A stretch of 64,000 nucleotides of DNA. Source: Octopus vulgaris (taxonomy: Eukaryota). The notes beneath the pieces are model-generated. The model did not search any database and was not told the origin of the DNA. It worked only from the letters and a program-made list of their open reading frames with translations. Positions within the stretch are counted from its first letter, which is position 1. Every line of letters begins with the position of its first letter. Location: NCBI GenBank assembly GCA_951406725.2, contig OX597829.1:15872001-15936000 (forward strand), given 5' to 3'. Positions 1 to 49,987 of this stretch are shown here, piece by piece. Both the position numbers and the translations under genes were made by a program.

Positions 1-160
1 TGTGGGTAATAAAGAAATAGAAATAGGTATTTCGCCTGTCTTTACCTTTCATTCTTTCGGGGTCGATAAATAAAGTACCATTTGCGTACTGGGGTCGATA
101 TAATCGACTGGCCCCACTCACCCAAAATTTCGGGATTTGTGCCTTGAGCAGAAAAGAATA
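1..160 (+). mobile_element. Family B SINE multimer, cut by the window edge
   Basis: Tail TGTGGGTAATAAAGAAATA followed by another Meta-domain unit. Confidence 0.75.
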
Positions 161-401
161 TACCTATAAAAGTAGTATCCCTTATGGTAGAAACGATTAA
201 CAAAGCAAATCTGTAATAAATGTGTATATAATAATTTTCTGTAATAATGTATATATATATATACACTCAGATACACACATATACATATACAAATATATAT
301 TTGCCTATGTACATATATCTAACAAACCTTTATGCATATATGAGTGTATACACGCACAAATAAGTTATATATATATACATGAATATATATATGTATGTGT
401 G

Positions 402-1510: not shown

Positions 1511-2529
1511 GACAGACAGACAGACAAACAGACAGATTGAAAAAGAGAGCGAGGGAGATAGACAGATAGACTTTATATATGTATATATATCATATATGTA
1601 TGTAAGTAGGTAGGTAGGTAGGTAGGTAGGTAGGTAGGTAGGTAGGTCTGTTGGTTGGTAGGTAGTCACACTTGTTGATCTATTAATGAATACAGACTAT
1701 TGTCATTTTCAGTTACAGCCAGATAAGATTTCGGAGTGCGTGTGTGTGTGTATGTGTGTATATGTGTGTGTGTCTGTGTCTGTGTGTGTGTTCGTAATCG
1801 ACAGAAGAAGGACAACTGTTGTTGTAAAGTTACCAGCACTTTAAATCTTCCTGTTTATTTCCTGTTAGCTCATGTTAGCTCATATACACCTCACACCAAT
1901 CCTTCGCCTCCTTCCTATATATTCTAACACAAATGTATATTCATATAACCATATGTATATACCTACCTACCTACCTACATACATACATACATACATACAT
2001 ACATACATACATACATACATACATACATACTTACATACATATATGATATATATACATATATAAACATATGTGTATATATAGACATATGCAGACATACATA
2101 TAGTCGTATGTGTATGCGTCTGTATGTGAGCGTGTGTACTACGCACTTTACCAGCATAGAGTCATATGCATTTATATATATACATATGGCAATTATATAT
2201 ACAAAAAGTACATACATATGCAAAACCATCCAAATGATCAATGCATCTCACAATTTTGTACTTAAATAGATTTCCAAACCGTTGCTAGGAGCAAACAACT
2301 AAGGTGAGTACAGAAAATATATATCTGCTAATGTGAGTCAGTAAATGATAATAATAAAAGACAGGACAAATACAGAATGTAGCATATATTTATATATCGA
2401 GCTTCAGAACAGTTCCCGCCTGCTAAATTCATCTACAAGGCATTTTGTTGCTTCGAGGTTATAAATGAAATCACTTGCCCAAGGTGACGAGCTTCAACAC
2501 TGAACGCGAAACTACATAGTTGCGAGGCC

Positions 2530-2915
2530 TGCCGGGCGAAATGCTTAGCCGTATTTCGTCGGCCGTTACGTTCTGAGTTCAAATTCCGCCGAGGTCGACT
2601 TCGCTTTCATCCTTTCGGGGTCGATAAATTAAGTGGCAGTTACGCACTGGGATCGATATAATCTACTTAATCCGTCTGTCTGTCCTTGTTTGTCCTCTCT
2701 GTGTTTAGCACATTGTGGGTAGTAAAGAAATAGGCTTTCTGTCTGCCGTTACGTTCTGAGTTCAAATTCCGCCGAGGTCGATTTTGCCTTTCATCCTTTT
2801 GGGGTCGATTAAATAAGTAGCAGTTACGCACTGGGGTCGATATAATCGATTTAATCCTTTTGTCTGTCCTTGTCTGTCCCCTCTATGTTTAGCCCCTTGT
2901 GGGTAGTAAAGAAAT
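2530..2915 (+). mobile_element. Family B SINE, dimeric
   Basis: Two tandem Meta-domain bodies; the second lacks the 5' half of the head. Confidence 0.88.
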
Positions 2916-3459
2916 ATATATATGTGTGCGTGCGTGTGCGAGCATGTGTGTGTGTATTTGGGCGCGCGCGTGTCCGTGTGCGTGTTATGCGTATATGTGT
3001 GTGTGCACGTATGTGCGTGTGCATATGTGTGCGTATGTATATGTGTGCCTGTGTGTGTGCGCGTGTGTAGTGTGTGTGTGCGTATGTATAGTGTGTGTGT
3101 GTCTGTGGTATGTGTGTTTGTGTATGCATATGCGTAGTGTGTCTGTATGTGTAGTGTGTGTGCATGCGTGTGTGCATGCGTGTGTGTGTATGCATGCATG
3201 CGTGTGTGTATGTGCATGCATGTGTGTGTGTGTGGGGGGCTGTGTGTGTAAGCGTGTTTGCAAGGGTGCTGTATATATGTGCTGAATGTTATGTATTTGT
3301 TCGGAGCTGATGATTCATTCATCGCATCTTCTAGGTTCTTGTAATGTTTGAACCTACAGACAACAAGATCACTTATTTTTTTTTGTCTTACATAAAAAGA
3401 TAATAGGCAGTGCGTTGACTTTTGAACTAGACAGATAGTATTTGTAATTGTACTTGTGG

Positions 3460-4247: not shown

Positions 4248-4478
4248 TATTTCTTTACTACCCACAAGGGGCTAAACACAGAGGGGACAAACAAGGACAG
4301 ACAAACAGATTAAGTCGATTATATCGACCCCAGTGCGTAACTGGTACTTATTTAATCGACCCCGAAAGGATGAAAGGCCAAGTCGACCTCGGCAGAATTT
4401 GAACTCAGAACGTAACGGCAGGCGAAATACGGCTACGCATTTCGCCCGGTGTGCTAACGTTTCTGCCAGCTCGCCACC
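4248..4478 (-). mobile_element. Family B SINE, full length
   Basis: Same consensus; TSD ATTGTCTCTACC on both sides. Confidence 0.9.
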
Positions 4479-5126
4479 TTATTGTCTCTACCGCTGTCTC
4501 CTCACGCACCATACTTCTCACACCTTGATATTTGAACGCAGGACGCTGAGGTACGTCAATTAATTGCTGTTGATGTGGTTACTACTGCTGCTGTTGTTGT
4601 TGCAGCTATAACTTAGTTCGAGGTCTTCTTGAATCGAGAGTACCTATAACCAATGATGTTACATCCATAACCAACAAAAAATTTTTTCCAGCATTTTACA
4701 GAAGAGTTGATTTTAATGGTGAATTGATTGCTATTTCTACCATTTCAAATGTCCTCATAGGAGTTTGTTTATTGACTTCGGTGGTTTAATTGATAAAGAT
4801 TCAGATGCACTGATACACTATACCACCTAATTAGCTAATTAGCTCCAAATGTTGTTCTAATTTAGGATTGCCGTACGTCTGTATTTCCAAGGGACATATG
4901 GATTCTCAAGTCAAATTTTACGTCCGGGAAGAATTTTTTTAAAATTACCTCAGAAGTTCCAAATTTCTGCTTCCATCACTTAAAAACTTATAAATATACG
5001 TCCCATGTGGCAGATATCTTTCTCAACATCAATCCAATTGTCGTTTGGTTGCCCCACAAATAAAGAATAATTTATCCACTCATTGTCATAGTTCGATATT
5101 AACGTATCTTTAATATTTAATTTGCT

Positions 5127-14925: not shown

Positions 14926-15021
<96 letters not shown>

Positions 15022-15314
15022 CTTTCTTTTATTAGCCACACAGGGTTGAATACAGAGGGGACAAATACAAATGCAGAGCTTTTCTTTTCGAGGGTGGAAA
15101 AAAATAAATGTAAGATTGCGATCAAAAGGGATCGAGAGGAGGAAAAAAAATTTTTTTAAATCGTGTATCACAGAAATAATGATAAAAACATTGATAAAAC
15201 AAGATTGGGTTCATCCGTGCGAAGAAAAGCCTACAGAAAAGACCACGGGAACCTCAGTCACGGAGGAAATAACCACATGAGATCAAAATGCTCTCTTTCT
15301 TTGTTTTTTACGAT

Positions 15315-18300
15315 CTACAGGATCATGCTCAAAATGGTTTCGTCACTCGCACGCACCATCTTTGCAACATTCACCCATCTTTTTTTTAATCTTTCGCGAG
15401 ACAAAACTTCCCTCTCCATTCTCACCTTCCTTTTCAAGTGGTACTTGAAAAAGTTGATGAGCGATTGGCCAGAGAGGTAAGTGTTTGTCTCTAATCCTTT
15501 CGCTCGGCTCCACCACACACATTCTTTCACCATGGCCACCAGTACGATGAAAACTGCCTTGTCTTCCCGGTTGAGGGAAGGGGGCGGAGCAATTCTCACA
15601 ATAGACTCGGCCGATAGGCGGATTCGTCCCACACGTGACAGCAGCCGTTCGGCATAAGCCCACAGGTCTGAAATGGTTGGACATTGCACGAGTGCGTGCA
15701 GAACGGTTTCGTCGCTCTGACCGCATCTCGGGCAAGTCGGTCCAGTGTGTCTGGAACCGTGTCTGTAGAGCTTATCCCGAACAGGTAATGCTTCTCGATA
15801 GCACTGCCAGGCCAGGGATCTTTGGTGGTTGTTCATAGGTCCCGGCCCGAAAGTTATCCTGAACAGGCGGGTCAGGTGTTCCTCGTCGACGCCCAGACTC
15901 TGCCCGAGTTCGTCGTCGCACCTCCCCTCCACTAATCCTCTATAGAATGCCTTTGTTGTGATGGAGTTGCACAAGTTCGATCCCGGACGGCAGAGTTGCT
16001 TGAGAGCAACGCGACACTCGCGGTGCCATTCGCCTAGCCTCGGTCTCTGCTTGATCCATGACTGTAGTTCGTCCAAGGAGACGAGCTGCGGGAAAGCGCG
16101 CCGCACAAAAGGCGACCACACCTGTTCACCGTTGTCTATGAAGCGCCGGAGATGTCGCAGTCTCAGCGCATGTCTGCGCATCATCAACCACGGCATGCCC
16201 AGCCCTCCATTTAGCGGGTGTTGACAGCAAATGGATCGCCTAACCATCGGAACGTTTCCCTTCCACAAGAAGCGGAAGAGTATACATTCCAGTTTGGTGA
16301 TGGTAGGGTCGGGACAAGGCACGACGGTCAGACGATATACTCGATGACGGATGCGATGTACGCGTTCGCCACCTCCGCCCGACCTTTTAGGGATAGATTT
16401 CTCTCAGCCCATTTCTGGGTGAGAGTAGCCACACTAGGCGTTATCTCGCCCCAGTTCTTCTCCATTTGGAGGTCCGGACCGAACCAGACCCCGAGCAATT
16501 TAACCGGTCCGTCCGTCCAGCGTCCCACGATGGAGACGCTGTTGGACGGCATGGGCCTGCCGAGCCGCAAGCCCACTGACTTTTCCCGGTTAATTTTTGC
16601 TCCCGTTATCGCTTCGTATTCTTTTAGTGTCCCGCCGACCAGCTCTATGTGCTCGTAGCTCGACACTATGACGGTGACGTCATCCGCGTATGCAGACACG
16701 CTCCTCCCGCATCCCAGCTCTCGTGGCATGCCCCTCAGCGTCGCCAGTTTCCGCAGTAGTGGCTCAAGAGTCAATACATACAGCAGCGATGAGAGGGGGC
16801 ATCCCTGACGAACCGAACGCATGATGTTAAAAGGTCTGGATAGATGACCATTTACGCGAACTACTGAGCGGATGCCGCTGTATAAGGCAGCGATCCAACC
16901 GCGGAAAACTGGACCGAAACCAGCCGCTTTAAGGACAGCCTCGAAGTAGTGATGGTCTACCCTATCGAAGGCTTTTGATTGATCCAAATTGATCAGCGCC
17001 CCACCCATGCCAGGATTCTTAACTACCCTGTCTATGATGTAGCGCATCAGATGGAGGTTGTCATGAATACTTCTACCCGGCACGGCGCATGTTTGCGCCT
17101 TGTCGATTAGTTTCTTGATGACAAGCGCCAACCTCTCGGCTAACACCTTGGCCAAAATTTTCAAATCTGCGTTGAGCAGAGTGATGGGCCTGAAATTATC
17201 TATGACGTCCCCCTTGTTTGGGTCTTTCTTAATCAGTGCCACTGATCCTCGCTTTACAAAAGCAGGAATACTCCCGTTTTTCTGCCAGTTGCAGTAGACA
17301 GCTGCCAAGACGCTTCCAAACAAGTCTGGCATATGAAAATAAAGTTCGTAGGGCAGACCATCCAAGCCTGGTGACTTGTCTATCGCGCAGCCTACCATCG
17401 CATCCTGTACGTCCGCAGCTGTGATAGGCCTTTCACAAGACTCCACCTCTTTTGCTGAGAGTCGTGGCAAGGCATGCAGGTAGGCACTAAAGTCCACTCT
17501 GCGTTCTGACCCACCACTTGTCCCAAACAGTTGGGTGAAGTGTTGTTGAAAAGCTCCACACATCCTTTTAGGCTCGAGCAATTCGCGCCCCTGTTCATCT
17601 ATAAGAGACTTGATGGTGGCTCTGTTGCCTCGTTGCGTCTCCACCACTCGGGCCTCTTGGGCGGCTCCAACTCCTTCGTTCATCAGAGCACGCATCCTAG
17701 CTCTGACAACGCATCCCTCGTGTTTGGCGTTGAGGTGTTGGTCGAGGACCAATCTCGCCGCCAGCACGTTGGACGCGATGCCAGTTCTAAGTGCCTCTTC
17801 TAAAGCCTTAACTAATTCTCCCTCTATTCTATTTCGGTCTAATGCTAGTGCTTTACTGTATCTGACTGATTCTGCTTTAATTGCTTTTTTTAGAGCATAC
17901 CACCATCTGTTGTTGATGATGGTACCCGTCAAAGCTCCCTTAACTAATGTTCTGATCCGGTCCCTGTAAACCTGTCGTGCTGTAAAAGACGCGTTCAGTT
18001 TCCAGTAACCAGGACCCTGCCTATGTGTCTTATCTAAGTCAAGTGTACAAGTCACAAACTTGTGATCTGTGTAACTGTCTATATGAAATTGTGGACAACC
18101 TACGCTATTTTTATCTATTGTCCTACAGAATACTCTATCTAAGTATGATCTGGACGACCCGATGCGGTTACTCCATGTCCACATTGGCACATTCGGGTGG
18201 TCCAGTCGGTACCTGTCAGACAGTTGGAAACGTCTGAGCAGGTCTTTGAGGCATTTGCATCCCCTTCTATTGCTATCTCTGCCCACGTAGTCTAGATGCG

Positions 18301-18733
18301 TGTCCAGGGTGGCATTCCAATCCCCCACTAAAAGTAAAGGACGAGACGTTCCCATGAAAGACTCTAGACGTCGAAAGAAATCTGGTCGGCCTGTTAAGGA
18401 CGGAGCATAAACTGCTATCAGTCGAAAAGCACACTCATTGCTGCCATCGACATCCAAGACGACCAGCCTACCCTCCGGGTCTAGGAAAATTGCTCTTACT
18501 TTGAGATCTAGACTCTTCCGGAGAAGCACCGCGGTGCCACCTCCGCCCATTCTCGGAGAAAAATAAATGTTAAAATGTGTACCGAAACTGTGCTGGAGTG
18601 CCCGCAAGCTGTGGAGTCTGGTCTCACTGATGGCTATGATATTCAGATTTAGTGACTTGATGTCATTTAACAGGTAGCCTTGTTTCCAAGGCGACCCCAA
18701 GCCACGTACATTTATACTGCCTATTCTGAGCAT
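15315..18733 (-). pseudogene. Tx1 ORF2 (APE endonuclease, reverse transcriptase, zf-RVT) with one frameshift
   Basis: Motifs SINVRGL, ISETRLH, AVYAP, GDWNA, YLDR, TDHK (APE); SPGLDGLP, NFRPITLLNADLKIL, LDQSKAFDRV, QGCPLS, YADD (RT); CPRCGQSDETVLHALVQC. A 2-bp insertion near 16337 (IEYIV* versus IDYCLTVVPCP in copy 3) splits it into ORFs 16328-18733 and 15315-16322. Confidence 0.95.
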
Positions 18734-18802
18734 GTTCCGATAAAAAATTGTGTTTTACACACGAAAAGAAAGTGCAAAAATGAAAGAGAGAGAGAGAAAA
18801 GG

Positions 18803-20890
18803 TTACTTGTTGTTCGAAAGTCCTTTGTTTTTCACCTCACAATCTTCTTCTATGAGGCTTTTGTATAGTTTTTTTGATGAATACTTTTGAAATCTCCCTA
18901 CTGCATCAGGGTAAAGAGATTTCAGGGTGCTGTATGTGTTCTGTGTTACGTGTATTATTTTAATGTGTTGTGGTGGTGTTGTGCGTGGGTGGTTACTTGT
19001 TTTTATGTCGTTTTCAGTTATGTTAGTGTTTGACCTAATGTGTTCCATTAGGTCGTGGTTGTTTGTGTTTATGGCTGTCAACATTGTTGTGGGGTTTGAT
19101 GATGGTGTGTTTGTGTTGATGTGTTTGTTTTCTGTGGATGTTTTTGTTTCGGGAGTGGTGAATCTTCCTGCTTTGTTTGTTATCTTTTCTTTTCTTTTTT
19201 TTCTCTTTTTCTTCTCCCCCCTGTGGCTATTTGCCAATCTTCTGTGTCTTCTTCGTCTAATGACAAATCAGAAGAATCAGAGCTTGGAAGAGGGAAAATA
19301 TTGGGGTCTATTGTAGACTGTGTTGATTTTGTTGTTGGTGTTGGTTGGTGAGCGTTAGGTTGTGGTGTATGCGGTTTTGGAGGTGGAGTGTGGGTATTTT
19401 GTGTTTGAGTGATTGTAGGTATTGTTGTGTTGTTTGGAGTGTCAATTTTGTGGGGATTTGGAGTAGTAATTGTTTCTTCATTTTCGATGAGTGTCTTTTT
19501 GGCAGATCTCTTTGGTTTGGGAGTTGGTTTATTCTTGGTTGTTGTTGTTGGTGATGTTGCTTCTGTTCTTGGTGCAGTTGGTGTGGTTGTTTGGTTGGTG
19601 AGGTTTGTTTTTTGTTGATTTTCTGTGATTAGTCCTGTTCGTGCAAAACGTGGTGTGGGTAGTAAACCTGGTTTATTTGTTTTTTCCGTTGTTTTTTCGT
19701 GCTGTTTTCTTGCGGCAGATTTGCAGTCTTTTTTTAGGTGTTGTTCACTGCCGCATATGTAGCAACGTGGCCTTCTGCCATCGACGACCACATACAACTT
19801 GTGGTCTTCTGATACACATATCTGGGTGGGTATTTTCTTTATGTCTTCTTGGTTTATATGTAGTAGAAATTCTACATTTTTTCCCACCCAGTTTTTGTGC
19901 TCCGTGACCGTGGTTTCCAAAATTGTGAAATCTTTCATTTTCACACATAAGGCCTTTACTAACCAGAGATTGTTAGCTATTTTTGGGACGTTGTTTAAAG
20001 TGATCTTAGTCACTTTCTGTCCACGATAGCTTGGTATTAATGTCAGTTCATCTGAATGAAGAGTTAGCGTTGAGAAACGTTTTGCTAACTCTTCAGTGTG
20101 GAAAACCACTTGTATGTGTGCGAACTTGCTCCACCAGGTCACATAGTCTTTGTAGTTCCAGATGGGTTTCAAGCATTTTTTATTTTGCTTGTGTTAGCCT
20201 TCTCTGGACTTTTTGTTTTCTTATTAATTATTTTATAAATAATTGTTCTTTTTTTTCATCTTCTAATATTTCTTCTGGTATGTTTATTTTTACTATACCA
20301 TCTACTTCCGTTATTGTAATGTTCGTGTCTGTTATTTGTTGTGCAGTAAAATATACTGTTGTCTTTTTTTCTTTAATCGCCTCGGCGAAATTTGTTGTTG
20401 TTTTGTTATTGTTGTTGCTGGTGGTGATGTTGTTGTTGGCTGCAGTTGGTAAATTTGGTGTATTTGGTTTGATTGTGCAAGTAGAAAGGGGTGGAAAATT
20501 ACTTGCATAATTTATTTCTGTATTCGAGCAGCTTTTGTCAATTTGTTTGGTGGTCACAGTCTTTTGTTTATTCACTTCAGTTCTTGTTGTTGGAGTAAAA
20601 CAGGTCTGAACGGAATTGTTGTTGTTGTTTTTGTTGTTTTTGTTGTTGGTGGTAGTGTCAGTGGCAGAAGAGACAGCCGTGGCAGCAGATGTCGAAATGG
20701 TGGCGCAATTTTAATTTTTGTTGTCATTGTTATTTTTGTTGTTGTTGGTAGTTGAGGTAGTGGATGAGGTGGCGGCGGTGGTGGTGGTGGTGGTGAAGGC
20801 GGTGGTGGTAACAGTAGTAGTCTCTATGTTGTTCTTGCTAGTGGTGGTGTTGGTGACAGGGCTGTTACTACAAGTAGTTGTAGCGTTCAT
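18803..20890 (-). pseudogene. Tx1 ORF1 (gag-like nucleic-acid-binding protein), fragmented
   Basis: Starts MNATTTCSNS at ATG 20890; ORF pieces 20228-20575, 19180-20172 and 18803-19237; knuckle RPRCYICGSEQHLKKDC; collinear with ORF1 of copy 3. Confidence 0.85.
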
Positions 20891-21224
20891 TGCAAAGTCA
20901 TTGATGATTTTACTTTGCGCGCATAAATTCTTTTTTTTTTCTCCTAGCGTTTCCAGTCTAGGAGAAAGCTGGTCGATAAAGGAACGCGACCATCGTTCTA
21001 CAATACAATTTCTTGACATTTTCAAAATGTCGAGAAAGAAATTACAAAAGTTAAATAGGGTTGAAACTGTCCCTAGGGGCGAATTCCTCCCATGGAAAAG
21101 CACTCAAACGAAAGTTGGGTGCCTTACACACCTTATTTACAAAAATGTACACAAAATATGGGCTATAAATAGTCAAAATAAACGATTACCTTCGGAGCCG
21201 AAGTGACAGCACGTCCATAGACAG

Positions 21225-21602
<378 letters not shown>

Positions 21603-22998: not shown

Positions 22999-23226
22999 TA
23001 TTTCTTTACTACCCTCAAGGGGCTAAACACAGAGAGGACAAACAAGGGCAGACAAACGGATTAAGTCGATTATATCGACCCCAGTGCGTAACTGCTACTT
23101 ATTTAATCGACCCCGAAAGGATGAAAGGCAAAGTCGACCTCGGCGGAATTTGAACTCAGAACGTAACGGCAGGCGAAATACGGCTACGCATTTCGTCCGG
23201 CGTGCTAACGTTTCTGCCAGCTCGCC
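22999..23226 (-). mobile_element. Family B SINE, full length
   Basis: Same consensus; 20-bp TSD GCAAGAGAGAAAGTATTTCA at 22979-22998 and 23227-23246. Confidence 0.92.
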
Positions 23227-23487
23227 GCAAGAGAGAAAGTATTTCAGTTAACGAATGTGTCCATCACAAGGAGTGAAAGAAATATCTTGATAGCAGAGCT
23301 ATAATGATTTCCACCCCTTCTCCATGGAAAGAAAAAAACCGCTGTAGAATGATTAGTAATACAGACAAGGAGCTTACCGCATGGAGGTAAAATTGCAAAA
23401 AGTTTGGCGAATGTAAGGCATAGCTCTAATGCGGGTCATTTGAAGGCAATGAAATTATTATCAGTGGCCTCCTTTGTTGGTTTAAAC

Positions 23488-24441: not shown

Positions 24442-26774
24442 CTTGCTGCTGCTGCTTGTGACGATGATGAGGATGACGATGATGACGACCATCACCCCCA
24501 ACACCATCACCACCCATCACCACCACCACCATCACGACGACGACGACGATGATGATGGTGGTGTGGTTGATAGTAAGGGAAATTCAATAATGGTCCGGGG
24601 TGGTTGTTACTTGTCAAAGCCCCCAAGAATAAAAGATTGTCCCATAGTTAAAGGCATACAGGACTCAGAAGATGGCAGGCCCTTAGATATTTATCATAAA
24701 GGCTCATCAGGCCGACATCAGGTGAACCATATACTGGCAGAAAGCAACGAAAAGCTTCTGCTGTGTTTTCTGCAGAAAAATTATGTAGCTTCAGATTTTG
24801 TCATGAAAATCCATGACCGATGTCACCTGTAAAAACAGACATGGTACGTGAAGAGAGCTGGAGAGCATTGTAGAACTGGAAACAAACATAGGGAAGAATA
24901 TGAGAAAGCTTTTTTCTAAGATGGCAAACAGTTACGAAGTTTTATTGATTGAGAAAAGAAAAAAAAAAAAGAGTAGAAAATTTTGGAGGATTCCTTAGAG
25001 TTCTTAACTTAACAAGTCTTCAAAAGGTCCAGCTACAATTTAGGAAGTGAAAGAAGTTGCTGGGTGAAACATGCATCTTTTGTTTTCAGAAGTGTATTTT
25101 TTGAAAGAGAATCAGCGGTGAGTAAAGTCATCCAGTTGATGAAGTGGTAAGTTTCCTCTGCTGTTGCTTCTGTTGGTGCTGATTTTGTTGTTGTTGTTGT
25201 TGTTGTTGGCAAAATACCTTGTTTGCGCTACTTCGGAATAGCTGTGTGTGAATAGCATGGTTCCTTGGCTGTTGTGGGATTAGATTATGTGAGGAATATT
25301 AAGAAATATACTTAAGAAGCCAACTTCCGTCATCGGTATATTTCTTTTGTGAAATCGAGAAGAAACTCGCTGAATGTTGGTGGTGAGTTTGGTTTTCCTA
25401 CAAGCTTCTCCCATTCAAGGGAAATCTATTGATACGATATTGATTTTTGTTAAAGGGATGTTTTCTTACCAAAATTTGAAGATGGAAACAAAAGTTGAGG
25501 GAGACGAATATAAGAAGGAAAGAAGGAGGAAAATGAGGAGGAGGAGAGTAAAATGGTGAAATAAAGTGGTGAGTGAGAGACAAATAAAATAGTGTCGCTA
25601 AGGAGTTGAAATCTAGATGCAACGTTACTGCTATTACATTAGATAAATTTATGTTCGAAGTAAGAAATAACAATATGAACAACGTGAACAGCAACAAGAA
25701 TTACAACAATGCGAAATACCTAAAGACAACAATAAAAATAATAAAAACAGTGGTAAAAGCAGCAACAATAACAACAACAGCTAACACTACTACAATAAGA
25801 GGGACACAGCCAACAGCATCAACACACACGCATTTATTTTTAATGAGATTTTCCAGCTGTCTTCGTCTCGAATGTTTGTGAAAGAAAATATAAATGCAAC
25901 GATAGTTCAGCAACAGGTCGGTCAAACATTATAAAAACAACCTCAAACGCAACCATCATGGCCAAGGCTTTCTATGTGGAAATCGGTTCCATCGCCGGTC
26001 AAAATATTGACAAGGGTAAACTAATAGTCAACGACAAGAATTAACGGGAAAAACATGAGATTCAGCTTTCATAAATACAAGAGGCATGCAGTATAGCAAG
26101 TATTACAAGACGGCAATTTTGTCGGATGTGTCACAGAGGGTTATTCAAAGAATCGATGAACGGTAACCTATTGATGAATAACTCATTGAGCAGAGAAACA
26201 AACACACAGAAAGGGAAAGCAATGTTTGAAATCTCTGTGAGAGAGAAAAGGCAGCAAGTTGTTACATCATTCGTTGTGAATATTCCAACTATCTGCGCTC
26301 TGAGTTCAAATACAGCCGACATCAACTCTGCTTTACATCTTTTATGGGGTCGATAAAAGAAGTATCAATCGAGGTTGATGAACTGGTGGAACTTAAGAAT
26401 GCCGGTCCAGATGTCTTGCGGTATTTATTCCGGCTTTTTGCATTCATAATTAAATTCCTGCTACTCGGTAGAGTTAGTCCATCACCCGGTTTAATACCAC
26501 CACTTGGCAATTTTGGTTACTTTTAGTGGAGTCCATTTTGTCGTAAGCATTTAGGTGAGGTTTCGTGTTCGGGGCTACCTTTCACCCCTCTTCTTACCAG
26601 TCCTTGAGGCCCTGTAAAGGGTCATGAACATTACGTTCCCCTATACTTAAGAATATATATAAAGAAGATATACATTACCCATGGAGAACATTTTGTTGCA
26701 GCAGATGCCAGATTTTCCACAGTTGCCGAACCGCTTAAGAACAAGGATTCCACACTTATACTAAGATATATGAG

Positions 26775-27002
26775 GGCGGCGAGCTGGCAGAAACGTTAGC
26801 ATGCCGGGCGAAATGCCTAGCGGTATTTCGTCTGCCGTTACGTTGAGTTCAAATTCAGCCGAGATCGACTCGGCCTTTCATCCTTTCGGGGTCGATAAAT
26901 TAAGTACCATTTGCGCACTGGGGTCGATATAATCGACTTAATCCGTTTGTTTGTCCTTGTTTGTCCTCTCTGTGTTTAGCCCCTTGTGGGTAATAAAGAA
27001 AT
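26775..27002 (+). mobile_element. Family B SINE
   Basis: Same consensus; short TSD ATATATGAG. Confidence 0.9.
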
Positions 27003-27648
27003 ATATATGAGCAGATGTGTGATAAAGGTAACAGTTGGGCGTGCCTACAAGACAAACTTACCGATGGCTAATTGTGATTGTTTTGCTTGATGTAGCTAGA
27101 ATTAAGATTCAAAAAGTAGGCTGGTTTGATGTAGACATATCCCTGATTAGATATGGCCAATGCTAACTAGAAAAGGAGCAAAAATTATCTAGTTAATGGA
27201 ACAACCACATGGAATTCGGTTAAATATAACGCTCGAAGGTGAACGACCTGTGACGCAAACCACTGAATGGCTTTCTGCTAAAATGAAAGAGTGAAAGAGC
27301 GAAAGAGGAAGGACCTCCCCCCACTCCCCTACCTCACCTACTGCACTCACACTTTCTACTATCGGAACCTCAACCTCAATTGTAACAACCCCCGCTATCG
27401 ACACATCAACAGCAATAACAGTAAAAGAAGTAGATCAAACAACAATTCTATCATCAACAATACCATGAAGATGAAGAAGAAAAACGAAGAACAACAACAA
27501 CAGCGACGACTACGACGACAACAACAGTAGCAGCATCAACATTTGCTGCAGCAGCAGTAGTAGTAGCAGTAGCAGCAGCAGCAGAGATTGACAAAAGCAA
27601 CTACAGTATTGACAACAAAGACCGATGACGATGACAACAACAACAGAA

Positions 27649-35564: not shown

Positions 35565-37123
35565 CGAGGTATTCGGGTCGAATTTGATAGTTTGCATAAA
35601 AGGATGAAAAAAAACAATAAGCCGTCCAAAATTAAAAGTATTTTAAAAACTCAAAAAGTATCAACTAGATAACAATATACTCAAAGTAACACCTTCAGCT
35701 TCCACCACAATCTCAAGGTGGCTGTAGAACCTAGCTCATGCGTCCCTCACTGTGTTCCTGGGAAGATCTTTGAAAAACTCGTTGGCTTTGCCCACCAGCT
35801 TGATCTTCTTTTTCAAGAAGAGCGGTTGGTGTCTTTCTCAGCAGCAACACACACAGTTATCCCTGGGATTGCAAATGGGGCAATTAGAACGCCAGAAATA
35901 GGGGCTGGTGAAGTCGTAGTAATTCTCTGATAACCACTTCTGACTCTTTCTGTGGGCATAGCAGGAAATCGAATTCCACTGCCATACATATGGCCTTCAA
36001 GCAGCAACGCCACTCCAGGTAGGGCTTGATACAACAGCTTCACACAGCCGTCTGAATCCAACCTATGACTTTGTTAAAAGAAGTAGAGTGGCATGATGTC
36101 ACCCTCACTGGAGGCACCCAAAGACAGTTTCGGGGAACTTGGATTTCATGATACATGGGACTTACATGGATTGTAGGTAAGTCACTTGTTGTCTTGGGTG
36201 CTGTACAGAAGTTCTTTTCATCTGAGAACCAAATCTGCCCTGGCACAACATGATGCCTCGGGTTGTTCAGGAGCATCTTTGTCTTCTTTAAGTTGTTCTT
36301 CTTGGCCGCCTTGACTGTCAGAATTTCTCCTTTGCGTCTCTTCTACGAAGAGCCGCGAAGGTCAACATTCAGAGCCAGCTTCATATTGGTGACTTCAACA
36401 CCTATCTCTCACTAAATCCCAGATTTCCTTGTTGGTATTTTCTTTCCACGGATAAACCCTATCTGCCTGACCCTTTACACTTTACATCATGACATTTCTG
36501 TGATACACGATCCCTATTGATCGTTTTTTACTTTTTTTCTTCTTTTCTTTCCTTTTTTTTCTTTCCCTTTTACGAGCTGGCAGAAACGTTAGCACGCCGG
36601 GCGAAATGCTAAGCGGTATTTCGTCTGCCGTTACGTTCTGAGTTCAAATTCCGCCGAGGTCGACTTTGCCTTTCATCTTTTCGGGGTCGATTAAATAAGT
36701 AGCAGTTACGCACTGGGGTCGATATAATCGACTTAATCCGTTTGTCTCTCCTTGTTTGTCCTCTCTGTGTTTAGCCGCTTGTGGGTAGTAATGAAACATG
36801 TATTTTCCATCACCTTGTACTGCAGTTGTTGGGTGAATTCTGGCGTGCAGATGCATTCAGAACGCTTGCACGGCATCGTAGTCTCCGTTGTAACTGCCCA
36901 TGTCGCATCTTACAGCTTTAAGGTGCTCACAAAGCACTGAGCGGTGCGAATCATTGCGATACAGATACTTCTTTTTTTCAGTATTCAGATGGCTTCTTGT
37001 TTTTCCTGTCAGTTAACTTTTTCTCAACGACAAGTTTAATCTTTGACTGTTCACCAATACATCAAATTGTTCCTGAAAACAGGAGACATAAAAAATAACG
37101 TCCAATTTAGCACGGATACCTCG
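35565..37123 (-). mobile_element. Decayed Tc1/mariner-superfamily DNA transposon, interrupted by a SINE
   Basis: Degenerate TIRs: CGAGGTATTCGGGTCGAATTTG (35565) and reverse-complement CGAGGTATCCGTGCTAAATTGG (37123). Transposase patches IWFSDEKNFC, RPYVWQ and a decayed WPPNSPDxNP-like motif. Confidence 0.75.
36573..36797 (+). mobile_element. Family B SINE inserted in the Tc1/mariner element
   Basis: Same consensus. Confidence 0.9.
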
Positions 37124-37461: not shown

Positions 37462-37496
37462 GCACATATACATATACATATACATATACATATCAA

Positions 37497-37726
37497 GGCG
37501 GCGAGCTGGTAGAATCGTTAGCACACCGGGCGAAATGCGTAACCGTATTTCGTTTGCCGTTACGTTCTGAGTTCAAATTCCGCCGAGGTTGACTTTACCT
37601 TTCATCCTTTCGGGATCGATAGATTAAGTACCAGTTGCGCACTGGGGTCGATGTAATCGACTTAATCTGTTTGTCTGTCCTTATTTGTCCCCTCTGTGTT
37701 TAGCCCCTTGTGGGTAGTAAAGAAAT
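37497..37726 (+). mobile_element. Family B SINE
   Basis: Same consensus. Confidence 0.9.
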
Positions 37727-37834
37727 ATATATATACATATATACATACATATATAAATATATACACACATATATATGTATGTATGTGTATGTATGTATGT
37801 ATGTGTGTATGTGTATGTGTATGTGTGTATGTAT

Positions 37835-42902: not shown

Positions 42903-42940
42903 GGAGAGAGAGAGACAAACAGACAGACAGATAAATATAT

Positions 42941-44240
42941 ATTGTTCTTTATTAGCCACACAGGGCTGCACACAGACGGGACATATTTCAAAGTAGAGCT
43001 TTTCTTTATGTGGAGAAAAAAAAGGTGGGGTAGGTTTTCGATCAAAAGGAATCGTAAAAGGGAAAGAAAAAAAGAAAAAAGGAAAGAAAAGAAGAAAAAA
43101 AGAAAAAGAAAAAAGAAAAAAACAATCAATAGGGATCGTGTATCACAGAAATGTCATGATGTAAACTGTAAAGGGGGAAGCAAATAGGGTTTATCCGTGG
43201 AAAGAAAAGCCTACGGAAAAGACCATGGTAACCTCGGTCAATAATGTCACATGTTAACACATTTATTTGCAAGTAAGTAATTCTCTGTTTTAAATTTTTC
43301 CAGGTTCATAGGACTATGCTCAAGGTGGCTTTGTCATTCATACGTGCCATCCTTGCTACATTCAATCATCTTTTTTTTAAACATTCGCTAGACAAAACTT
43401 GCCTCTCTACTCTCACTTTCCTTTTCAAGTGATACTTGAAGAAGTTGATGAGAGATTGACCAGAGAGGAAAGTGTTTGTCTCCATTCCTTTCAGACACGT
43501 CCACCAGATACATTCTTTCGCCATAGCCACAAGAATGATAAAAATAGCTCTTCCTGCCCGTTTGAGGGAAGGAGGTGTGACAATATTGATAAACCGACTC
43601 GTCCCACACGTGACAGCAGTCGTTCGACATAAGGTCGGAAATTGTTGGACACTGCATGAGTGCGTGCAGAACGGTTTCGTCGCTCTGACTACATCTCGGG
43701 CAGGTCGGCCCCGTGTTTCTCGAGCTATGTCTGTAGAGTTCATCCCGAACGGGTAGCGCTTCACGGTAGCACTGCCAGGCCAGGGATCTCTGGAAGTTGT
43801 CCATGGACCCTGACCCGAAAGTCGTTTCAAACAGGCGGGTCAGGTATTCCTCATCGACGAACAGGTTCGCCCCGAGCTCGTGTCGTACCTCCCCTCCACT
43901 TATCCCCTATAGAATGGTTTGGTTGTGCTGAAGTCACGCAAGGTCGACCCGGGACGGCATAGTTGCTTGAGAACAACGCGACACTCGCGGTGCCATTCGC
44001 CCTTCCTCGGCCTCTTTTTGATCTACGACTGCAGTTTGGTCATGGAGACGAGCTGCGGGAAAGCGTGCCTCACAAACGGCGACCAGACCTGTTCACCGTC
44101 GTCTACGTAGAGCCGGAGATGTCGCAGTCTCAGCGCGTGTCTGCGCATCATCAACCACGGCATGCCCAGTCCTCCTTTTAACGGGAGTTGACAGCAAATG
44201 GATCGCCTGAGCATCGGGACGCATCCTTTCCACAAGAAAC

Positions 44241-44241
<1 letters not shown>
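42941..44241 (-). mobile_element. 5'-truncated Tx1-clade LINE, copy 2 (ORF2 C-terminus plus 3' UTR)
   Basis: ORFs 44023-44235 ([31 protein letters not shown]) and 43388-43804 (CPRCSQSDETVLHALMQC) are homologous to copy 1; the truncation junction abuts (GATA)n at 44241. Confidence 0.93.
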
Positions 44242-44334
<93 letters not shown>

Positions 44335-44345
44335 TAGATAGATAT

Positions 44346-44410
<65 letters not shown>

Positions 44411-44430
44411 TAGATAGATAGATATATATG

Positions 44431-44517
<87 letters not shown>

Positions 44518-44797
44518 CTTTTTATTGTAGCCACACAGGGCTAAACACAGAATAAAAATGGACGAAATACAATGTAGAATTTTTTCTTTTTGAGGTGGGA
44601 TGGGTGGGGCACAAAAAAAAACGTTTGATCAATAGGGATCTGTGGGTTGTGTGGTGTGTAAAAAAGCAATATATATATATAAAGTTCACAGTTTAGGTGT
44701 AGCCTTGGAAAGAAAAACCTACAAAAAAGACCAAGGTCACCTCAGACAGAAAATGAACACATGAGTAAGTCGCCTTACTTCTCGTTGTCCCTTTTGG

Positions 44798-47700
44798 TTA
44801 CAGATTTATGCTTAAAATAGTGTCGTCTTTCATACTGACCATTTTTGCCACTTTTACCCACTTTTTATTAAAACATTCGTTCGACAAAGCCTCCTCTCTA
44901 TTCTCATCCTCCTTTTCAAGTGGTACTTGAAAAAGTTGACGAGAGACTGACCAGAGAGGAAGGTGTTTCTTTGCAGTCCTTTCAAACGCGTCCACCACAC
45001 ACATTCTTTCGCCATAGCCATCAGCGTAACGAAAACCGTTTTTCCTTCCCGTTTAAAGGAAGGTGGTGGAACAATATCCACGATAGACTCGGCCGATATG
45101 CAGGCCCGACCTACACGTGACAACAGCTGTTCGACGAAGGTCCACAGCTCTAAAATATCTGGACACTGTACGAGTGCGTGCAGAACGGTTTCGTCGCTCT
45201 GACCGCATCTCCGGCAGGTCGGTACGGTGATGGTTTTCGAACCGTGCCTGTAGCTCTTCTCTCGAACAGGTAGTGCGTCTCGATAGCACTGCCAAGCCAG
45301 GGATTTCTGGAAGTTATCCATAGGCCCCGGCCCGAACGTCGTCCTGAACAGGCGGGTTAGGAATTTCTCGTCGACGCCCAGGTTTGCCCCGAGTGTGTCG
45401 TCGGACCTCCCCTCCACTAGTCCTCTATAGAACGCTTTAGTCATTTGGAAGTTGCACAAGTTTGACCCCGGTCGGCAGAGCTGCTGTAGAGCTTGGCGAC
45501 ACTCTCGGTGCCAATCGCCCAGTTTCGGTCTCTTCTTGATCCACGTTTGCAGTTCGGTCAGTGAGACGAGCTGCGGGAAGGCGCGCCTCACAAACGGCGC
45601 CCACACCTGTTCACCGTCGTCGATGAAGTTCCAGAGATGCCGCAGTCTCAGCGCATGCTTGCGCATCATCAACCACGGCATGCCCAGTCCTCCATTCAAC
45701 GGATGTTGACAGCAAATTGACTTCCTCACCATCGGAACGCCACCCTTCCACAGGAAGCGGAAGAGTATGCGTTCCAGTTTGGTGATGGTGGCGTCGGGAC
45801 AAGGTACGACGGTCAGGCAGTAATCGATGACGGATGCGATGTACGTGTTCGCCACCTCCGCCCGACCTTTTAGAGATAGCTTTCTCTCGGCCCATGTTTG
45901 ACTGAGAGCAACCACTCTACTCATGATCTCGTCCCAGATCTTATCCATTTGGAGGTCCGGACTGAACCAGACCCCGAGCAATTTAACCGGTCCGTCCGTC
46001 CAGCGTCCCACTACTGAGCCGCAGTCGGACGGCATGGGCTTGCTTCTCCAGGTTCCGAGTAGCAAACCCACTGACTTTTCCGGGTTAATCTTCGCTCCCG
46101 TCACCGTTTCGTATTTTCTTAGTGTCTCGCCTATCATCTGGATGTGTTTGTCGCTCGACACTATGACGGTGACATCGTCGCCAGCTTCCGTAGTAGCGGC
46201 TCGAGAGTCAATACATACAGAAGCGCCGACAGGGGACACCTCTGACGGACCGAACGCGTGATGTCAAACGGTTTCGACAGGTGACCGTTCACCCGAATCA
46301 CCGATCGGATGCCGCTATACAAGGCAGCGATCCAACCGCGGAAGACGGGACCGAAGCCAGCCGCCCTGAGGACGGCCGCCAAGTACCGATGGTCGACCCT
46401 ATCGAAGGCTTTAGACTGATCCAAATTTATCAGCTCCCCACCCATGCCAGGATCCTTAACTACCCTGTCCACAATGTAGCGCATCAGATGTAGCGCATGT
46501 TTGCGCCCTGTCGACCAGTTTACCAATGACAAGCGCCAACCTCTCGGCTATTACTTTGGCCAAAATTTTCAAATCTGCGTTTAGCAGAGTGATGGGCCTG
46601 AAATTATCTATAAAATTCCCCTTGTTTGGGTCTTTCTTCAGCAGCGTCACTGCACCTCGGCTCACGAAACCGGGGATTCTCCCGTTTTGTTGCCAGTTGC
46701 AGTAGACTGATGCCAAGAGGTCGCCAAACAAGTCTGGCATTTGACAATACAGCTCGTAGGGTAAACCATCCAATCCAGGCGACCTATCCCTCGCACAGCC
46801 CGCCATCGCATCCCGCATGTTAGCGGCTGTAATGGGACTTTCACAACACTCCGCTTCTCTTGCCGAGAGCCGCGGCAGGTCGGTCAGGTAGGCACTGAAA
46901 TCCATCCCGCGTTCCGACCCACCACTCGCACCAAACAGTCGAGCAAAGTGCTGTTGAAAGGCCTCACACATCCCTTCGGGTTCGAGTAAACTGCATCCCT
47001 GTTGATCTATTAGAGACCGAATGGTGGCTCTGTTGCCACGCTGCCTCTCTGCTACCCGGGCCTCTCGCGCAGCTTCGATCCCTTCGTTCCTTAAGGCACG
47101 CATTTTAGCTCTGACGTCGCAACCTTCGTGCTTGGCGTTGAGGTGTTGGTCGAGGGCCATCCTCGCAGCCAGCACGTTGGTTGCGCTGCCAGTGGTAAGT
47201 ACCTCTTCTAGTTTCTTAACCAGGTCTCCCTCTACTCTATTTTGATCTATCGCTAATTCCTTGCTAAACCTAATTGATTCCGATTTTATTGCCATTTTCA
47301 GGGCGTACCACCAGCGGTTGTTAACGACGGCTCCCGTCAGCGCCCTCTTAATTAACTCGCTAATCCGGTTCCTGTAAACCTGTCGCGCTAAGAGCGACGT
47401 GCTCAGTTTCCAGTAACCGGGACCCTGTCTATGTGTCTTATCTAAGTCGAGCGTACACGTAACAAATTTGTGATCTGTGTAGCTGACTATTTTAAATTGT
47501 GGACATCCTACACTATCCCTATCCGCTGTCCTGCATAGTATTCTATCTAGATAAGATCTCGACGATCCGACGCGGTTTGTCCAAGTCCACGTTGGCACGT
47601 TCGGATGGTCGAATCGGAACCTGTCAGACAAATGGAAACGTCTGAGTAGGTATTTGAGGAACTTGCACCCCCTTCTATTCCTATCCATTCCCACATAATC

Positions 47701-48150
47701 TAGATGCGTGTCCAAGGTAGCGTTCCAATCCCCTACTAACAGTAAAGGTCTAGACGTACCCAGGAAAACCTCTAGACGTCTGAAGAAATCCGCCCGACCC
47801 GTTAAGGACGGTGCATAAACTGCCATCAGACGGAATGCACACCCATTTCTGCCATCCACGTCCAAGACAACCAGCCTACCCTCCGGGTCTAGGAATATAG
47901 TTGTTACTTTTACATTTAGACTCTTTCGAAAAAGCACCGCGGTACCTCCACCACCCATGTTCGGCAGACAGGGAGAAAAATAAATGTCGAATTGATCGCC
48001 AAACATGGACGCGAGGGCCCGCGGCTTGCTGGGTCTGGTTTCACTGCTAGCTACTATATCCACGTTCAGTGACTTAATGTCATTTAGAAGGTAACCTTGC
48101 CTCCAAGCCGACGCCAAGCCACGCGCATTCACACAACCTAATTTAAGCAT
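44798..48150 (-). pseudogene. Tx1 ORF2 of copy 3, disrupted by deletions and frameshifts
   Basis: ORF pieces 46456-48150 (APE and RT N-terminus), 46161-46532 (LDQSKAFDRV) and 44854-46239 (zf-RVT). The segment leading into YADD is deleted near 46178. Confidence 0.93.
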
Positions 48151-48224
48151 AATTGACGTTTACGAAAATTGTGTTTCACACACTACATTGGAAGAGACAA
48201 GAGGCAAGAGGGCAGGTCACTTAC

Positions 48225-49987
48225 TCATTTCGAAAGTTTCATTTTTTTCTTCTTCCTTTGTAGTGTCTTTGATGAGGCGTTTGTATAGTTTTTGGAGAGG
48301 TATCGTTGAAACCCGCCTACCGCATTTGGAAATATTGTTTTCAGTGTATGGTGTTGTGTTTGTGTAATATGTACAATTCTTATGTGTTTCGGTGGTGTGG
48401 TGCGCGGATGAGTGTTTGTCTTAAAGTCATCTTCACAGATGTCCGTGTTGGATGCAATGTAATCCATGAATTTTTTATTGTCTGTGTTTATTGCAGTTAG
48501 TTGTGTGTGTGGTTTTGCGGGTTCATTGATTTTTGATTGTCTAGGGGGATGCTGTCCGGAGTTAAATATCTCCCTGCTTTACTTCCTTGTTTGGTGGGCT
48601 TTTTTTATCTTTTCCTTTTACCCCCTGTGGCTATTTGCCATTCCGTCGAACTTTCGTCGTCCGACGAATCAGAAGGTGTAAAGGCAAAGTATTTGCGTTA
48701 ATATGTATGCTTGTAGAAATTGTTGATGTTTTGTGCGGTGTTTGTGTTGTTGTGGTGTTAGGGGTAGAATTTGTCTTCTCGTCACTGATTTCTGTCTTTT
48801 TAATTGTCGTCCTCGGTGTTGGTGTTGGTCTATCTTTTGGTTCAGTATGTTGAATTGGTTGCGACGTCAACGGTGATTGTGTTGGTATTGTTTCTTTTCT
48901 TGGTGATGTTGTTGGGGTTTGTTTGCTGGTTTGTTGTTTTTCTTGGCATTATTCCATAATTGAGTGTGTTGGTGTTGGTGTTGGTGTTGGCAACAAGGGT
49001 TTTTTATTTGTTTTCTGATTTGTTCTTTCTTGTTTTTTTTGTGCCAGAGCGCACTTGGCAATTAAATGTTCTGGGCTGCCACAGTTGTAGCACCTAGGCT
49101 TTTTGCCTTCTGCTACAACATATAGGCTTTGCCCATTTTCTAAATGGATCCTATCGGGTAGGTTCTCGATAGAGGCCCCCTCAATCTGGATGGTCACTAC
49201 TATTGTTTTACCACCCCAATTGTCGTTTTTGTACACGGCGGTTTCTAATATATTTATCTTTTTCAAATGGTAACAGATTGCCTCTGTTATCCATTTGTTA
49301 GGTATCTCGGGAGGTAAATTTTTAATGCTAATTCTACTCACTCTCTGGTCTTTGTAATATGGTACTATGATGATTTCATCATTTTGCAAAAACTCCGTAG
49401 AGTGAGCTTTTGCCACTTCCTGGTTAGGGAAGCGGACCACCACTGTATTAAACTGGGGACCCCAGTTTATATATTCTTTTTTTTTCATTATGCATTTTAA
49501 ACACTTTTCTATGTCCGTTTTTGTAATCTATTTTGTTTTTTGTTTTTTCTCATAATTTTATATATAATTGTCTTATTTTCTATTTGTTCCTTTATGTGTT
49601 GAGGTGTATGCAGCACTAAATCTTGCCCTTGGGTTGTAAAGAGTGCTCTCGTTTCTATTAACTCTCATTCGTAAATTTTACTATTTCTTTTTTCTGACGC
49701 AGAGTGTCAGCGAAATTTACTGGTGTTGTTGATTCTTTTATATTAAGATCTTCACTATTAGATAGTAAGATATTTATTTCATTTTTATTGTTGTTCTTCT
49801 TGTTGTTGTTGTTTTTGTTAATAGTATTCGCGTGAGTTTCATTTTTATCATTTATGTTGGTCGTGGTAGTGGTGGAGGTGGTGGTGGTAGTAGTAGTAGT
49901 CTCGTTGTTGTTGTTGTTGTTAGTGGTGGTGGTGGTGGTGGTGGTGGTGGCGACAGAGCTGTTACCGCAAGTGGTTGCAGCGTTCAC
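48225..49987 (-). pseudogene. Tx1 ORF1 of copy 3, fragmented
   Basis: Begins NAATTCGNSS (GTG in place of the ATG of copy 1); knuckle KPRCYNCGSPEHLIAKC; C-terminal HPRTTPPKHIRIVHITQ matches HPRTTPPQHIKIIHVTQ of copy 1. Confidence 0.85.

What the first reader, a model, noticed from the sequence alone, without database searches (positions are those of the whole stretch)
15021..15070. Meta-domain SINE shares its 3' end with the Tx1 LINEs
Seen: LINE copy 1 ends TTGTATTTGTCCCCTCTGTATTCAACCCTGTGTGGCTAATAAAAGAAA and copy 3 ends CTGTGTTTAGCCCTGTGTGGCTACAATAAAAAG. Family B SINEs end TTGTTTGTCC(C/T)CTCTGTGTTTAGCCCCTTGTGGGTAATAAAGAAATA (for example 26957-27002). Both can form a short stem-loop before the AATAAA-like motif (AGCC-ctgtgt-GGCT; GCCC-cttgt-GGGT). 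Established: shared 3' tails mark stringent SINE-LINE partners, mostly for CR1, L2 and RTE, whereas mammalian L1 is relaxed. Inference: this abundant SINE is mobilised by a Tx1 that recognises a 3' stem-loop.
Basis: partly seen in the sequence, partly recalled or inferred. Interest (0 to 1): 0.75.

Follow-up and report, generated by a model that had tools for sequence, protein, structure and literature searches.

The report
Octopod SINE carries Tx1 LINE tail
In what is likely an octopus genome, an abundant short jumping element ends in the same ~43 bases as a microsatellite-dwelling, likely Tx1-type LINE and is likely copied by that LINE's enzyme, a tail-sharing partnership that I did not find reported for this LINE group in animals.

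Summary
The shared tail is real. The last ~43 nt of SINE family B match all 3 LINE ends in the window (0 of 10,000 shuffles reach the score), and these ends are the top 3 hits of a SINE-tail profile. Neither element has a poly(A) tail.

The stem-loop is only moderately supported. The cited copy breaks it, but 89-98% of family depth in 4 public runs restores the G-C pair, and sister SINE tails swap stem pairs around the same loop. Folding energy is not better than shuffles.

Two corrections. The SINE body does not match the Meta domain sequences I could read. Targets differ: 3 of 3 LINEs but 0 of 8 SINE insertions lie in (ATCT)n. Tx1 is inferred from architecture and target, not from a tree. 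No genome was available to exclude a better-matching LINE. Verdict: likely a stringent-type SINE/Tx1 pair, a new variant of a known kind.

The parts
15021..21230 (-). LINE copy 1, full length, L1 superfamily, likely Tx1 clade; ORF1 broken, ORF2 in two frames (16331-18754 APE+RT; 15318-16403 zf-RVT)
15023..15065 (-). 3'-terminal ~43 nt of copy 1 shared with SINE B1 (35 of 43 identical to copy 26770); hairpin arms 15047-15044 and 15037-15034; position 15046 breaks the pair here and is a minority variant in the family
44518..50309 (-). LINE copy 3, full length, about 76-84% identical to copy 1; ORF1 with zf-CCHC; shared tail 44518-44551
42940..44241 (-). LINE copy 2, 5'-truncated; shared tail 42945-42985
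14928..15019 (.). (AGAT)n/(ATCT)n at the 3' flank of copy 1 (5' flank: 21231-21602)
44244..44515 (.). (ATCT)n-type repeat between copy 3's 3' end and copy 2's 5' end (other flanks 50320-50427 and, about 120 nt beyond copy 2's end, 42753-42820)
26774..27003 (+). SINE B1 reference copy: tRNA-like head with A/B-box-like motifs (read by eye), unnamed body, LINE-like tail; 9-bp duplication
4248..4480 (-). SINE B1, 12-bp target duplication
22999..23228 (-). SINE B1, 18-20-bp target duplication
37496..37727 (+). SINE B1 in a TA-rich repeat
2527..2916 (+). SINE B1 dimer, 5'-truncated
59909..60324 (+). SINE B1 dimer inside one 20-bp target duplication
63222..63822 (+). B1-B1-B2 trimer; a 13-bp repeat on both sides was read by eye
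36435..36807 (+). Chimera: 8-bp duplication (36435-36442), LINE copy-2-type 3'UTR piece (to about 36575), 3-nt overlap, SINE B1 lacking its first ~7 nt (36573-36799), duplication (36800-36807); sits in a decayed transposase-like gene on the - strand
38..163 (+). SINE B2: same body, different tail, preceded by a B1 tail at 1-19
59354..59553 (-). Older SINE B3-type copy: same body, G-C-type stem around the same loop (others: 7814-7961 -, 7987-8126 +, 54809-54956 +)

Best explanation
Family B1 is a ~232-bp SINE with a tRNA-like head whose last ~43 nt match the 3' end of this window's likely Tx1-clade LINE, and it is likely copied by that lineage's ORF2 protein, which is predicted to recognise the tail itself (probably a 4-bp stem with a 5-6 nt U/G-rich loop just before an A-rich end) rather than a poly(A) tail. 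Shown: the terminal sequence match, the lack of poly(A), 8-20-bp target duplications, and one SINE fused to this LINE's 3'UTR inside a single duplication. Inferred: Pol III transcription; binding of the tail by ORF2p; target-primed reverse transcription starting at the tail end; occasional template switching onto LINE RNA (the chimera) or onto another SINE RNA (dimers, trimer). Also inferred: the SINE misses the (ATCT)n target either because a less specific sister subfamily moves it, or because the LINE's preference partly comes from its read-through RNA end pairing with the repeat, which the SINE RNA lacks.
For: Tail match above all 10,000 shuffles for 3 of 3 LINE ends, also without the A-rich end; the LINE ends are the top 3 of 16 profile hits. 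In-window controls score 10-16 against 34-43 for B1 versus LINE: an RTE-like end, another SINE tail, B2 and B3 tails. In 4 of 4 runs the consensus of loose ends at 15028 (64-121 contigs, agreement 0.52-0.57) ends the LINE family with GAAACAT before ATCT units; 3 of 11 SINE tails end GAAACA and 8 of 11 GAAATA. No poly(A) on any of 11 SINE or 3 LINE ends. Chimera: the LINE piece matches copy 2 best (score 197 against 50 and 33; 82 of 88 nt in its unique part). The flanks align colinearly to one protein, P0134 (residues 33-48 on the right, 59 onward on the left, 10 codons between, with a 2-nt shift after them). SINE copies are 89-96% identical to their consensus, similar to the chimera/copy-2 distance. 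Stem: 89, 98, 97 and 96% of depth at 15046 restores G-C; no variant between 15034 and 15045 among the 40 rows shown (23 not shown). Of 27 substitutions possible at the three differing core positions, 9 keep a hairpin; of 16,092 triple substitutions touching the G-C stem, 8% do. Across 20 tails 85% of cells pair; 0 of 500 shuffles reach this; best slid control 51%.
Against: 0 of 8 SINE insertions have (ATCT)n within 30 nt against 3 of 3 LINEs (Fisher p 0.006; copy 2's 3' side is a degenerate mix), and the SINE duplications show no common cut motif. PMC4494074 states that target choice is mainly set by the endonuclease. Seven single tails fold no better than shuffles (z from +1.36 to -1.55), and RNAalifold finds no consensus pair. 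The covariation rests on three tail types, so 2-3 events; I anchored the rows on the 3' arm, and the number of pairs with a double change is not above shuffles (167 of 500). LINE and B1 stems differ in register by one base. The chimera is one locus and could have formed in two steps. No genome-wide comparison with other LINE families was possible. Tx1 membership was not placed on a tree.
Confidence: 0.7

Rival explanations
1. The tail came from this LINE lineage, but the copies were made mostly by an unseen sister family without (ATCT)n specificity that shares the same 3' end. This is a variant of the best explanation that changes the partner, not the clade.
For: Target mismatch 0 of 8 against 3 of 3. 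The three copies are different subfamilies (76-84% identical). An O. vulgaris annotation lists 80 L1-Tx1 families. Loose-end agreement is only 0.52-0.57.
Against: The chimera carries a copy-2-type UTR, and copy 2 has (ATCT)n at its 5' junction. SINEU-1 and -2 share their Tx1 partner's target in only 23% and 13% of copies, at which rates 0 of 8 has probability 0.12-0.33.
Confidence: 0.35
2. The LINE recognises the primary sequence of the tail or just its A-rich end, and the hairpin is incidental.
For: Fold z-scores not significant; no RNAalifold pairs; 9 of 27 same-position substitutions keep a hairpin anyway; the match extends about 25 nt upstream of the stem.
Against: The family majority restores the broken pair. 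B2/B3 tails pair in 17 of 24 cells in the same register with swapped pairs, against 7-13 when slid. Loop and stem matter in L2 LINEs (PMC4176376 passages).
Confidence: 0.35
3. The tail is a relic of an old capture from Tx1, and the SINE is now moved by another clade such as RTE, which is abundant in octopuses.
For: Target mismatch. Duplications of 8-20 bp do not identify the clade. RTE-BovB is reported as expanded in cephalopods. The same head and body carry at least three tails.
Against: B1 versus the RTE-like end in the window scores 10; B1 has no terminal tandem repeat; the tail match reaches the last bases; the chimera involves this LINE's sequence.
Confidence: 0.15
4. Chance similarity of pyrimidine-rich and A-rich sequence.
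For: The stretch is short; a TTTGTCCCC-like motif also occurs in another SINE (E 0.21).
Against: 0 of 10,000 shuffles in nine tests; the match is terminal in both elements and found in 3 of 3 copies.
Confidence: 0.02

Closest known systems
Maize ZmSINE2/ZmSINE3 with LINE1-1_ZM, and Chlamydomonas SINEX-3_CR with L1-1_CR (PMC3747384; passages and Table 1 read)
   Same: tRNA-type SINE sharing a ~45-80 nt 3' end with an L1-superfamily LINE; hairpin with compensatory changes in the plant case.
   Different: [quoted passage not shown] This is an animal, likely Tx1. Neither partner here ends in poly(A) or poly(T). The hairpin here is much weaker (about -5 against -11 to -18 kcal/mol, with different programs and lengths).
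Crocodilian SINEU with Tx1-Mar (PMC4494074; passages and section 16 read)
   Same: A SINE inferred to be moved by a target-preferring Tx1; weaker target preference in trans.
   Different: The reverse evidence pattern: SINEU shares the target but no LINE with a shared 3' end was found, and it has poly(A) and snRNA heads. Here the tail is shared and the target is not.
Stringent pairs of L2, CR1 and RTE (UnaSINE/UnaL2, BivaCORE-SINE2/L2; ZfL2 stem-loop binding, PMC4176376 passages; PMC4824008 parts 1-3 of 6)
   Same: Shared terminal sequence with a predicted stem-loop; tail swapping on a common head and body.
   Different: Other LINE clades; those LINEs end in their own short tandem repeats; function was tested there and not here.
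Kibi, Koshi and crocodilian microsatellite-targeting Tx1 (as described in PMC4494074)
   Same: Tx1-type LINE inserted in simple repeats.
   Different: Targets listed there are (TC)n, (TTC)n, (TTCC)n, (TTTC)n. An (ATCT)n target did not come up in search.
MetaSINEs, including cuttlefish SepiaSINE2 (PMC4824008)
   Same: tRNA-type head, conserved middle, exchangeable tails, mollusc host.
   Different: The B body does not resemble the Meta/MESC sequences readable in the supplements. SepiaSINE2 itself is only in a figure that I could not see.
Alu/L1 and U6/L1 chimeras (bioRxiv 10.1101/2025.02.02.635956, passages)
   Same: Same-orientation chimera inside one target duplication, ascribed to template switching or RNA ligation.
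   Different: There the LINE is the 3' part; here the SINE is 3' and the LINE UTR is 5'.

Membership tests
MetaSINE | 66-bp Meta domain directly behind the tRNA head (members 61-86% identical to the consensus) | tested here: not met
   By-eye comparison with BivaMeta-SINE1 and BivaMD-SINE1 and MESC. A 12-nt Meta motif gave 4 two-mismatch hits against 3.48 expected, none in the body. The paper's Fig. 2 consensus is a picture and was not seen.
SINE (tRNA type) | Short, repeated, non-coding, with target duplications | tested here: met
   11 B1 tails, 89-96% to consensus; B1+B2 segments cover 4.3% of the window; duplications of 8-20 bp at 6 of 8 insertions.
SINE (tRNA type) | tRNA-derived head with A and B boxes | tested here: inconclusive
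   Box-like motifs seen by eye (recalled consensus); head folds at z -3.5; ARAGORN 0 and Rfam 0 hits.
SINE (tRNA type) | Pol III transcription | not testable with these tools
   No raw RNA reads.
L1 superfamily (L1/Tx1) | ORF2 with AP endonuclease, RT and C-terminal zinc-binding domain, closest to L1 ORF2p | tested here: met
   PF03372, PF00078, PF13966; human L1 ORF2p E 1e-53 against R2 3e-20.
Tx1 clade | ORF1 with CCHC zinc knuckle (feature recalled) | tested here: met
   PF00098 E 2.9e-4 in copy 3 ORF1; Atlas neighbours are CCHC and ZCCHC3-type clusters.
Tx1 clade | Target preference (more than 20% of flanks in one repeat type) | tested here: met
   3 of 3 copies in (ATCT)n, which with 30-nt margins covers 2.5% of the window; loose-end consensus in 4 of 4 runs shows ATCT units.
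Tx1 clade | RT phylogeny groups with named Tx1 elements | not testable with these tools
   No named Tx1 reference was returned.
Stringent SINE/LINE pair | Shared 3'-terminal sequence | tested here: met
Stringent SINE/LINE pair | Conserved stem-loop with compensatory changes | tested here: inconclusive
   For. Against. Few independent events.
Stringent SINE/LINE pair | No other LINE family in the genome matches better | not testable with these tools
   No genome held; only in-window controls.
Stringent SINE/LINE pair | Tail required for mobilisation by the partner's ORF2p | not testable with these tools
   Needs an assay.

The most novel reading that the evidence does not exclude
An animal Tx1 lineage uses stringent recognition of a minimal hairpin with a U/G-rich loop, and a whole octopod SINE clan (B1, B2, B3) has tracked successive Tx1 subfamilies by swapping stem pairs around the same loop. 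The LINE's (ATCT)n preference comes largely from its RNA 3' end pairing with the target rather than from the endonuclease, so the same enzyme scatters the SINE genome-wide while keeping the LINE in microsatellites.
Probability: 0.2. Interest if true: 0.75.

Novelty: new variant of a known kind. Interest (0 to 1): 0.5.

Why it matters
A 2013 survey of 58 SINE/LINE pairs found only three SINEs with L1-clade tails, all in plants or algae, and the one SINE assigned to Tx1 shares no tail with it. A tail-sharing pair in an animal would be sequence evidence that stringent 3' recognition exists in the animal L1/Tx1 branch, which bears on whether the poly(A)-only mode of mammalian L1 is derived. It would name a likely driver for one component of the octopus SINE expansion, and the 18-nt core gives a small, directly testable element. 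The split between shared tail and unshared target also allows a test of whether enzyme or RNA sets Tx1 specificity.

Tried and rejected
No whole genome is held. Scans for LINE relatives gave 2 distant loci in metagenome contigs (28% and 36% identity, both contigs ending before the 3' end) and none in viral contigs. No RNA holder was listed among 24 runs, which says nothing on expression. Rfam and ARAGORN found nothing. A Pfam scan of 82 of 154 further stop-to-stop frames found no other RT (two sub-cut-off DUF hits). The 'same positions' figure came from an off-by-one slice and was discarded; one search has the corrected count. The automatic duplication finder missed the chimera's 8-mer because of my boundary choice; it was read and confirmed. 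The word-index protein search for the chimera's flank found nothing; the HMMER search gave 8 unnamed proteins with no Pfam family in the 5 scanned, so 'mariner-like' is my recalled reading. The SINE body could not be named: the SINEBase supplement could not be read, and motif searches of the library and of two supplements were empty or unrelated. Earlier-findings look-ups returned nothing. Rejected: chance similarity; the Meta label; AATAAA as a shared functional signal (8 of 11 SINE tails lack it).

Full report
Setting. The window is repeat-rich animal DNA. The best named relatives of the LINE protein are from Argonauta hians (55% and 68% identity), so the host is likely an octopod; this is an inference. 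No whole genome is held. Three related LINE copies lie on the minus strand: 15021-21230, 44518-50309 and a truncated one at 42940-44241. ORF2 carries AP endonuclease, RT and zf-RVT, and ORF1 of copy 3 a CCHC knuckle. The closest solved structure is human L1 ORF2p (E 1e-53; R2 3e-20). All three copies abut (ATCT)n repeats, which cover 2.5% of the window with margins. L1 superfamily is shown. Tx1 is inferred from the CCHC ORF1 (recalled feature) and the microsatellite target (PMC4494074); no named Tx1 sequence was returned for a tree.

The SINE. Family B1 is about 232 bp; 11 copies are 89-96% identical to their consensus. Six of 8 insertions have clear duplications of 8-20 bp. The head folds strongly (z -3.5) and has box-like motifs by eye, but ARAGORN and Rfam give nothing. 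The body does not resemble the Meta domain as printed for bivalve MetaSINEs or MESC SINEs, and a Meta motif is at chance level. The title's 'Meta-domain' is therefore not supported. I could not name the body: the SINEBase supplement and the figure with SepiaSINE2 were not readable, and either may bear on whether this family is already catalogued.

The shared tail. The SINE tail consensus scores 42, 33 and 43 against the three LINE ends; none of 10,000 dinucleotide shuffles of either side reaches these values, with or without the A-rich end. A profile of the SINE tails run over the window with family B masked ranks the three LINE ends first among 16 hits. An RTE-like end, another SINE's tail and the B2/B3 tails score 10-16 in the same scheme. 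Contigs of four public runs (four organism codes, three studies; one may be the window's own source) laid on 15005-15520 show a family end that reads GAAACAT and then ATCT units, at agreement 0.52-0.57. SINE tails end GAAATA (8 of 11) or GAAACA (3 of 11), so the match runs to the last bases. No copy of either element has a poly(A) tail, which argues against the relaxed mode of mammalian L1. The last 40 alignment columns are 65-77% identical among the three LINE copies, more than most of the UTR upstream but not uniquely so (one upstream block is 70-80%).

At 36435-36807 a piece of LINE 3'UTR, closest to copy 2 (82 of 88 nt), runs through a 3-nt overlap into a SINE lacking its first few bases, in the same orientation, with the same 8-mer at both outer edges. 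The flanks are two halves of one decayed gene. Protein P0134 aligns to the right flank up to residue 48 and to the left flank from residue 59, and the ten codons between sit directly behind the left repeat, with a 2-nt shift after them. One copy of the 8-mer thus restores colinearity. The simplest reading is one insertion in which reverse transcription began on SINE RNA and switched to LINE RNA. Similar chimeras with the LINE as 3' part are known for Alu and L1. A two-step origin (SINE inserted into a short LINE copy, then deletion through the shared tail) is not excluded, and this is one locus.

The stem-loop. Copies 2 and 3 can form 4-5 bp around a 6-nt loop, and B1 4 bp around a 5-nt loop, one base out of register. 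Copy 1, at the finding's coordinates, has an A-C mismatch. In the four runs 89, 98, 97 and 96% of depth at 15046 reads the base that restores G-C, so copy 1 carries a minority change; none of the 40 variant rows shown falls in 15034-15045 (23 rows not shown). The same head and body also occur with other tails, B2 (2 copies) and older B3 (4 copies). These keep the loop and mostly replace two C-G pairs by G-C: 17 of 24 cells pair, against 7-13 when slid. Over 20 tails 85% of cells pair and 0 of 500 shuffles reach that or the covariation score. Against this: the rows were anchored by me on the 3' arm, they stand for 2-3 events, pairs with double change are not above shuffles (167 of 500), seven single tails fold no better than shuffles, RNAalifold predicts no pair, and 9 of 27 substitutions at the differing positions would keep a hairpin anyway. 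I put the hairpin at about 0.55-0.6.

The main difficulty. None of 8 SINE insertions lies in (ATCT)n, against 3 of 3 LINEs (Fisher p 0.006), and their duplications share no cut motif. If the endonuclease alone sets the target (as stated in PMC4494074), the in-window LINE subfamilies are not the main movers. Three ways out remain: weak preference in trans (13-23% for SINEU-2 and -1, under which 0 of 8 is unremarkable), an unspecific sister family, or targeting helped by the LINE's own RNA end. The chimera, with a copy-2-type UTR at a non-ATCT site, fits the first and third.

Comparison with what is known. The 2013 review lists 58 pairs; its L1-clade pairs are maize/sorghum and Chlamydomonas, with no animal or Tx1 pair. 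SINEU is assigned to Tx1 by target and has no LINE with a shared end. The MetaSINE paper says partners of MetaSINEs were unknown. Searches returned no paper on a cephalopod SINE with a Tx1 tail. Term searches in three mollusc or octopus repeat papers and in the 2018 Repbase survey and its supplement showed no such pair. The library lacks most subscription papers, including the 1994 octopus SINE paper, and Repbase and Dfam were not searched, so a database annotation may exist. Read by listing, passages or named sections only; no paper was read whole.

Verdict. Observation confirmed. The partnership with this LINE lineage is likely (0.7), the hairpin is plausible but unproven, and the Meta label is not supported. 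A new variant of a known kind; interest 0.5.

Noticed in passing
14560-15019 (+): The (AGAT)n repeat that holds LINE copy 1 directly follows a fragment that looks like an RTE C-terminus and 3' end (recalled resemblance; no Pfam hit; translation). An RTE tail may seed the microsatellite that the Tx1-like element targets.
   Followed up: partly
1-45, 2732/2736, 60140/60141, 63436/63439: Four SINE-SINE junctions join a B1 end to about position 52 of the next monomer, at the loop of the head's long stem; the three second monomers with B1 tails share a diagnostic base. Either a dimer master copy or a switching or ligation hot spot.
   Followed up: partly
63222-63822: B1-B1-B2 trimer with a 13-bp repeat on both sides, so it likely inserted as one unit starting from a B2 tail.
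   Followed up: partly
34340-35015: Old, decayed relative of the same LINE: ORF2 pieces on + (34340-34832) and one on - (35015-34947), like a 5' inversion.
   Followed up: partly
35690-36920 (-): Decayed transposase-like gene (mariner-like by recalled motif) that hosts the chimera; relatives P0134, P0135, P0137 are unnamed.
   Followed up: partly
13808-13975 (+), 14340-14545 (+), 11229-11660 (-): A second abundant SINE with an inner TA/TG repeat and a tandem-repeat tail. It shares a short part of the B body (E 0.26) and a TTTGTCCCC-like motif, but its tail does not match the LINE.
   Followed up: no
39174-39926, 41048-41894, 42089-42482: Long inverted repeat pairs around TA repeats (MITE-like), seen in the self-comparison.
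   Followed up: no
50765-50912: A long (ATCT)n without a LINE next to it, 460 nt upstream of copy 3: an empty target.
   Followed up: no
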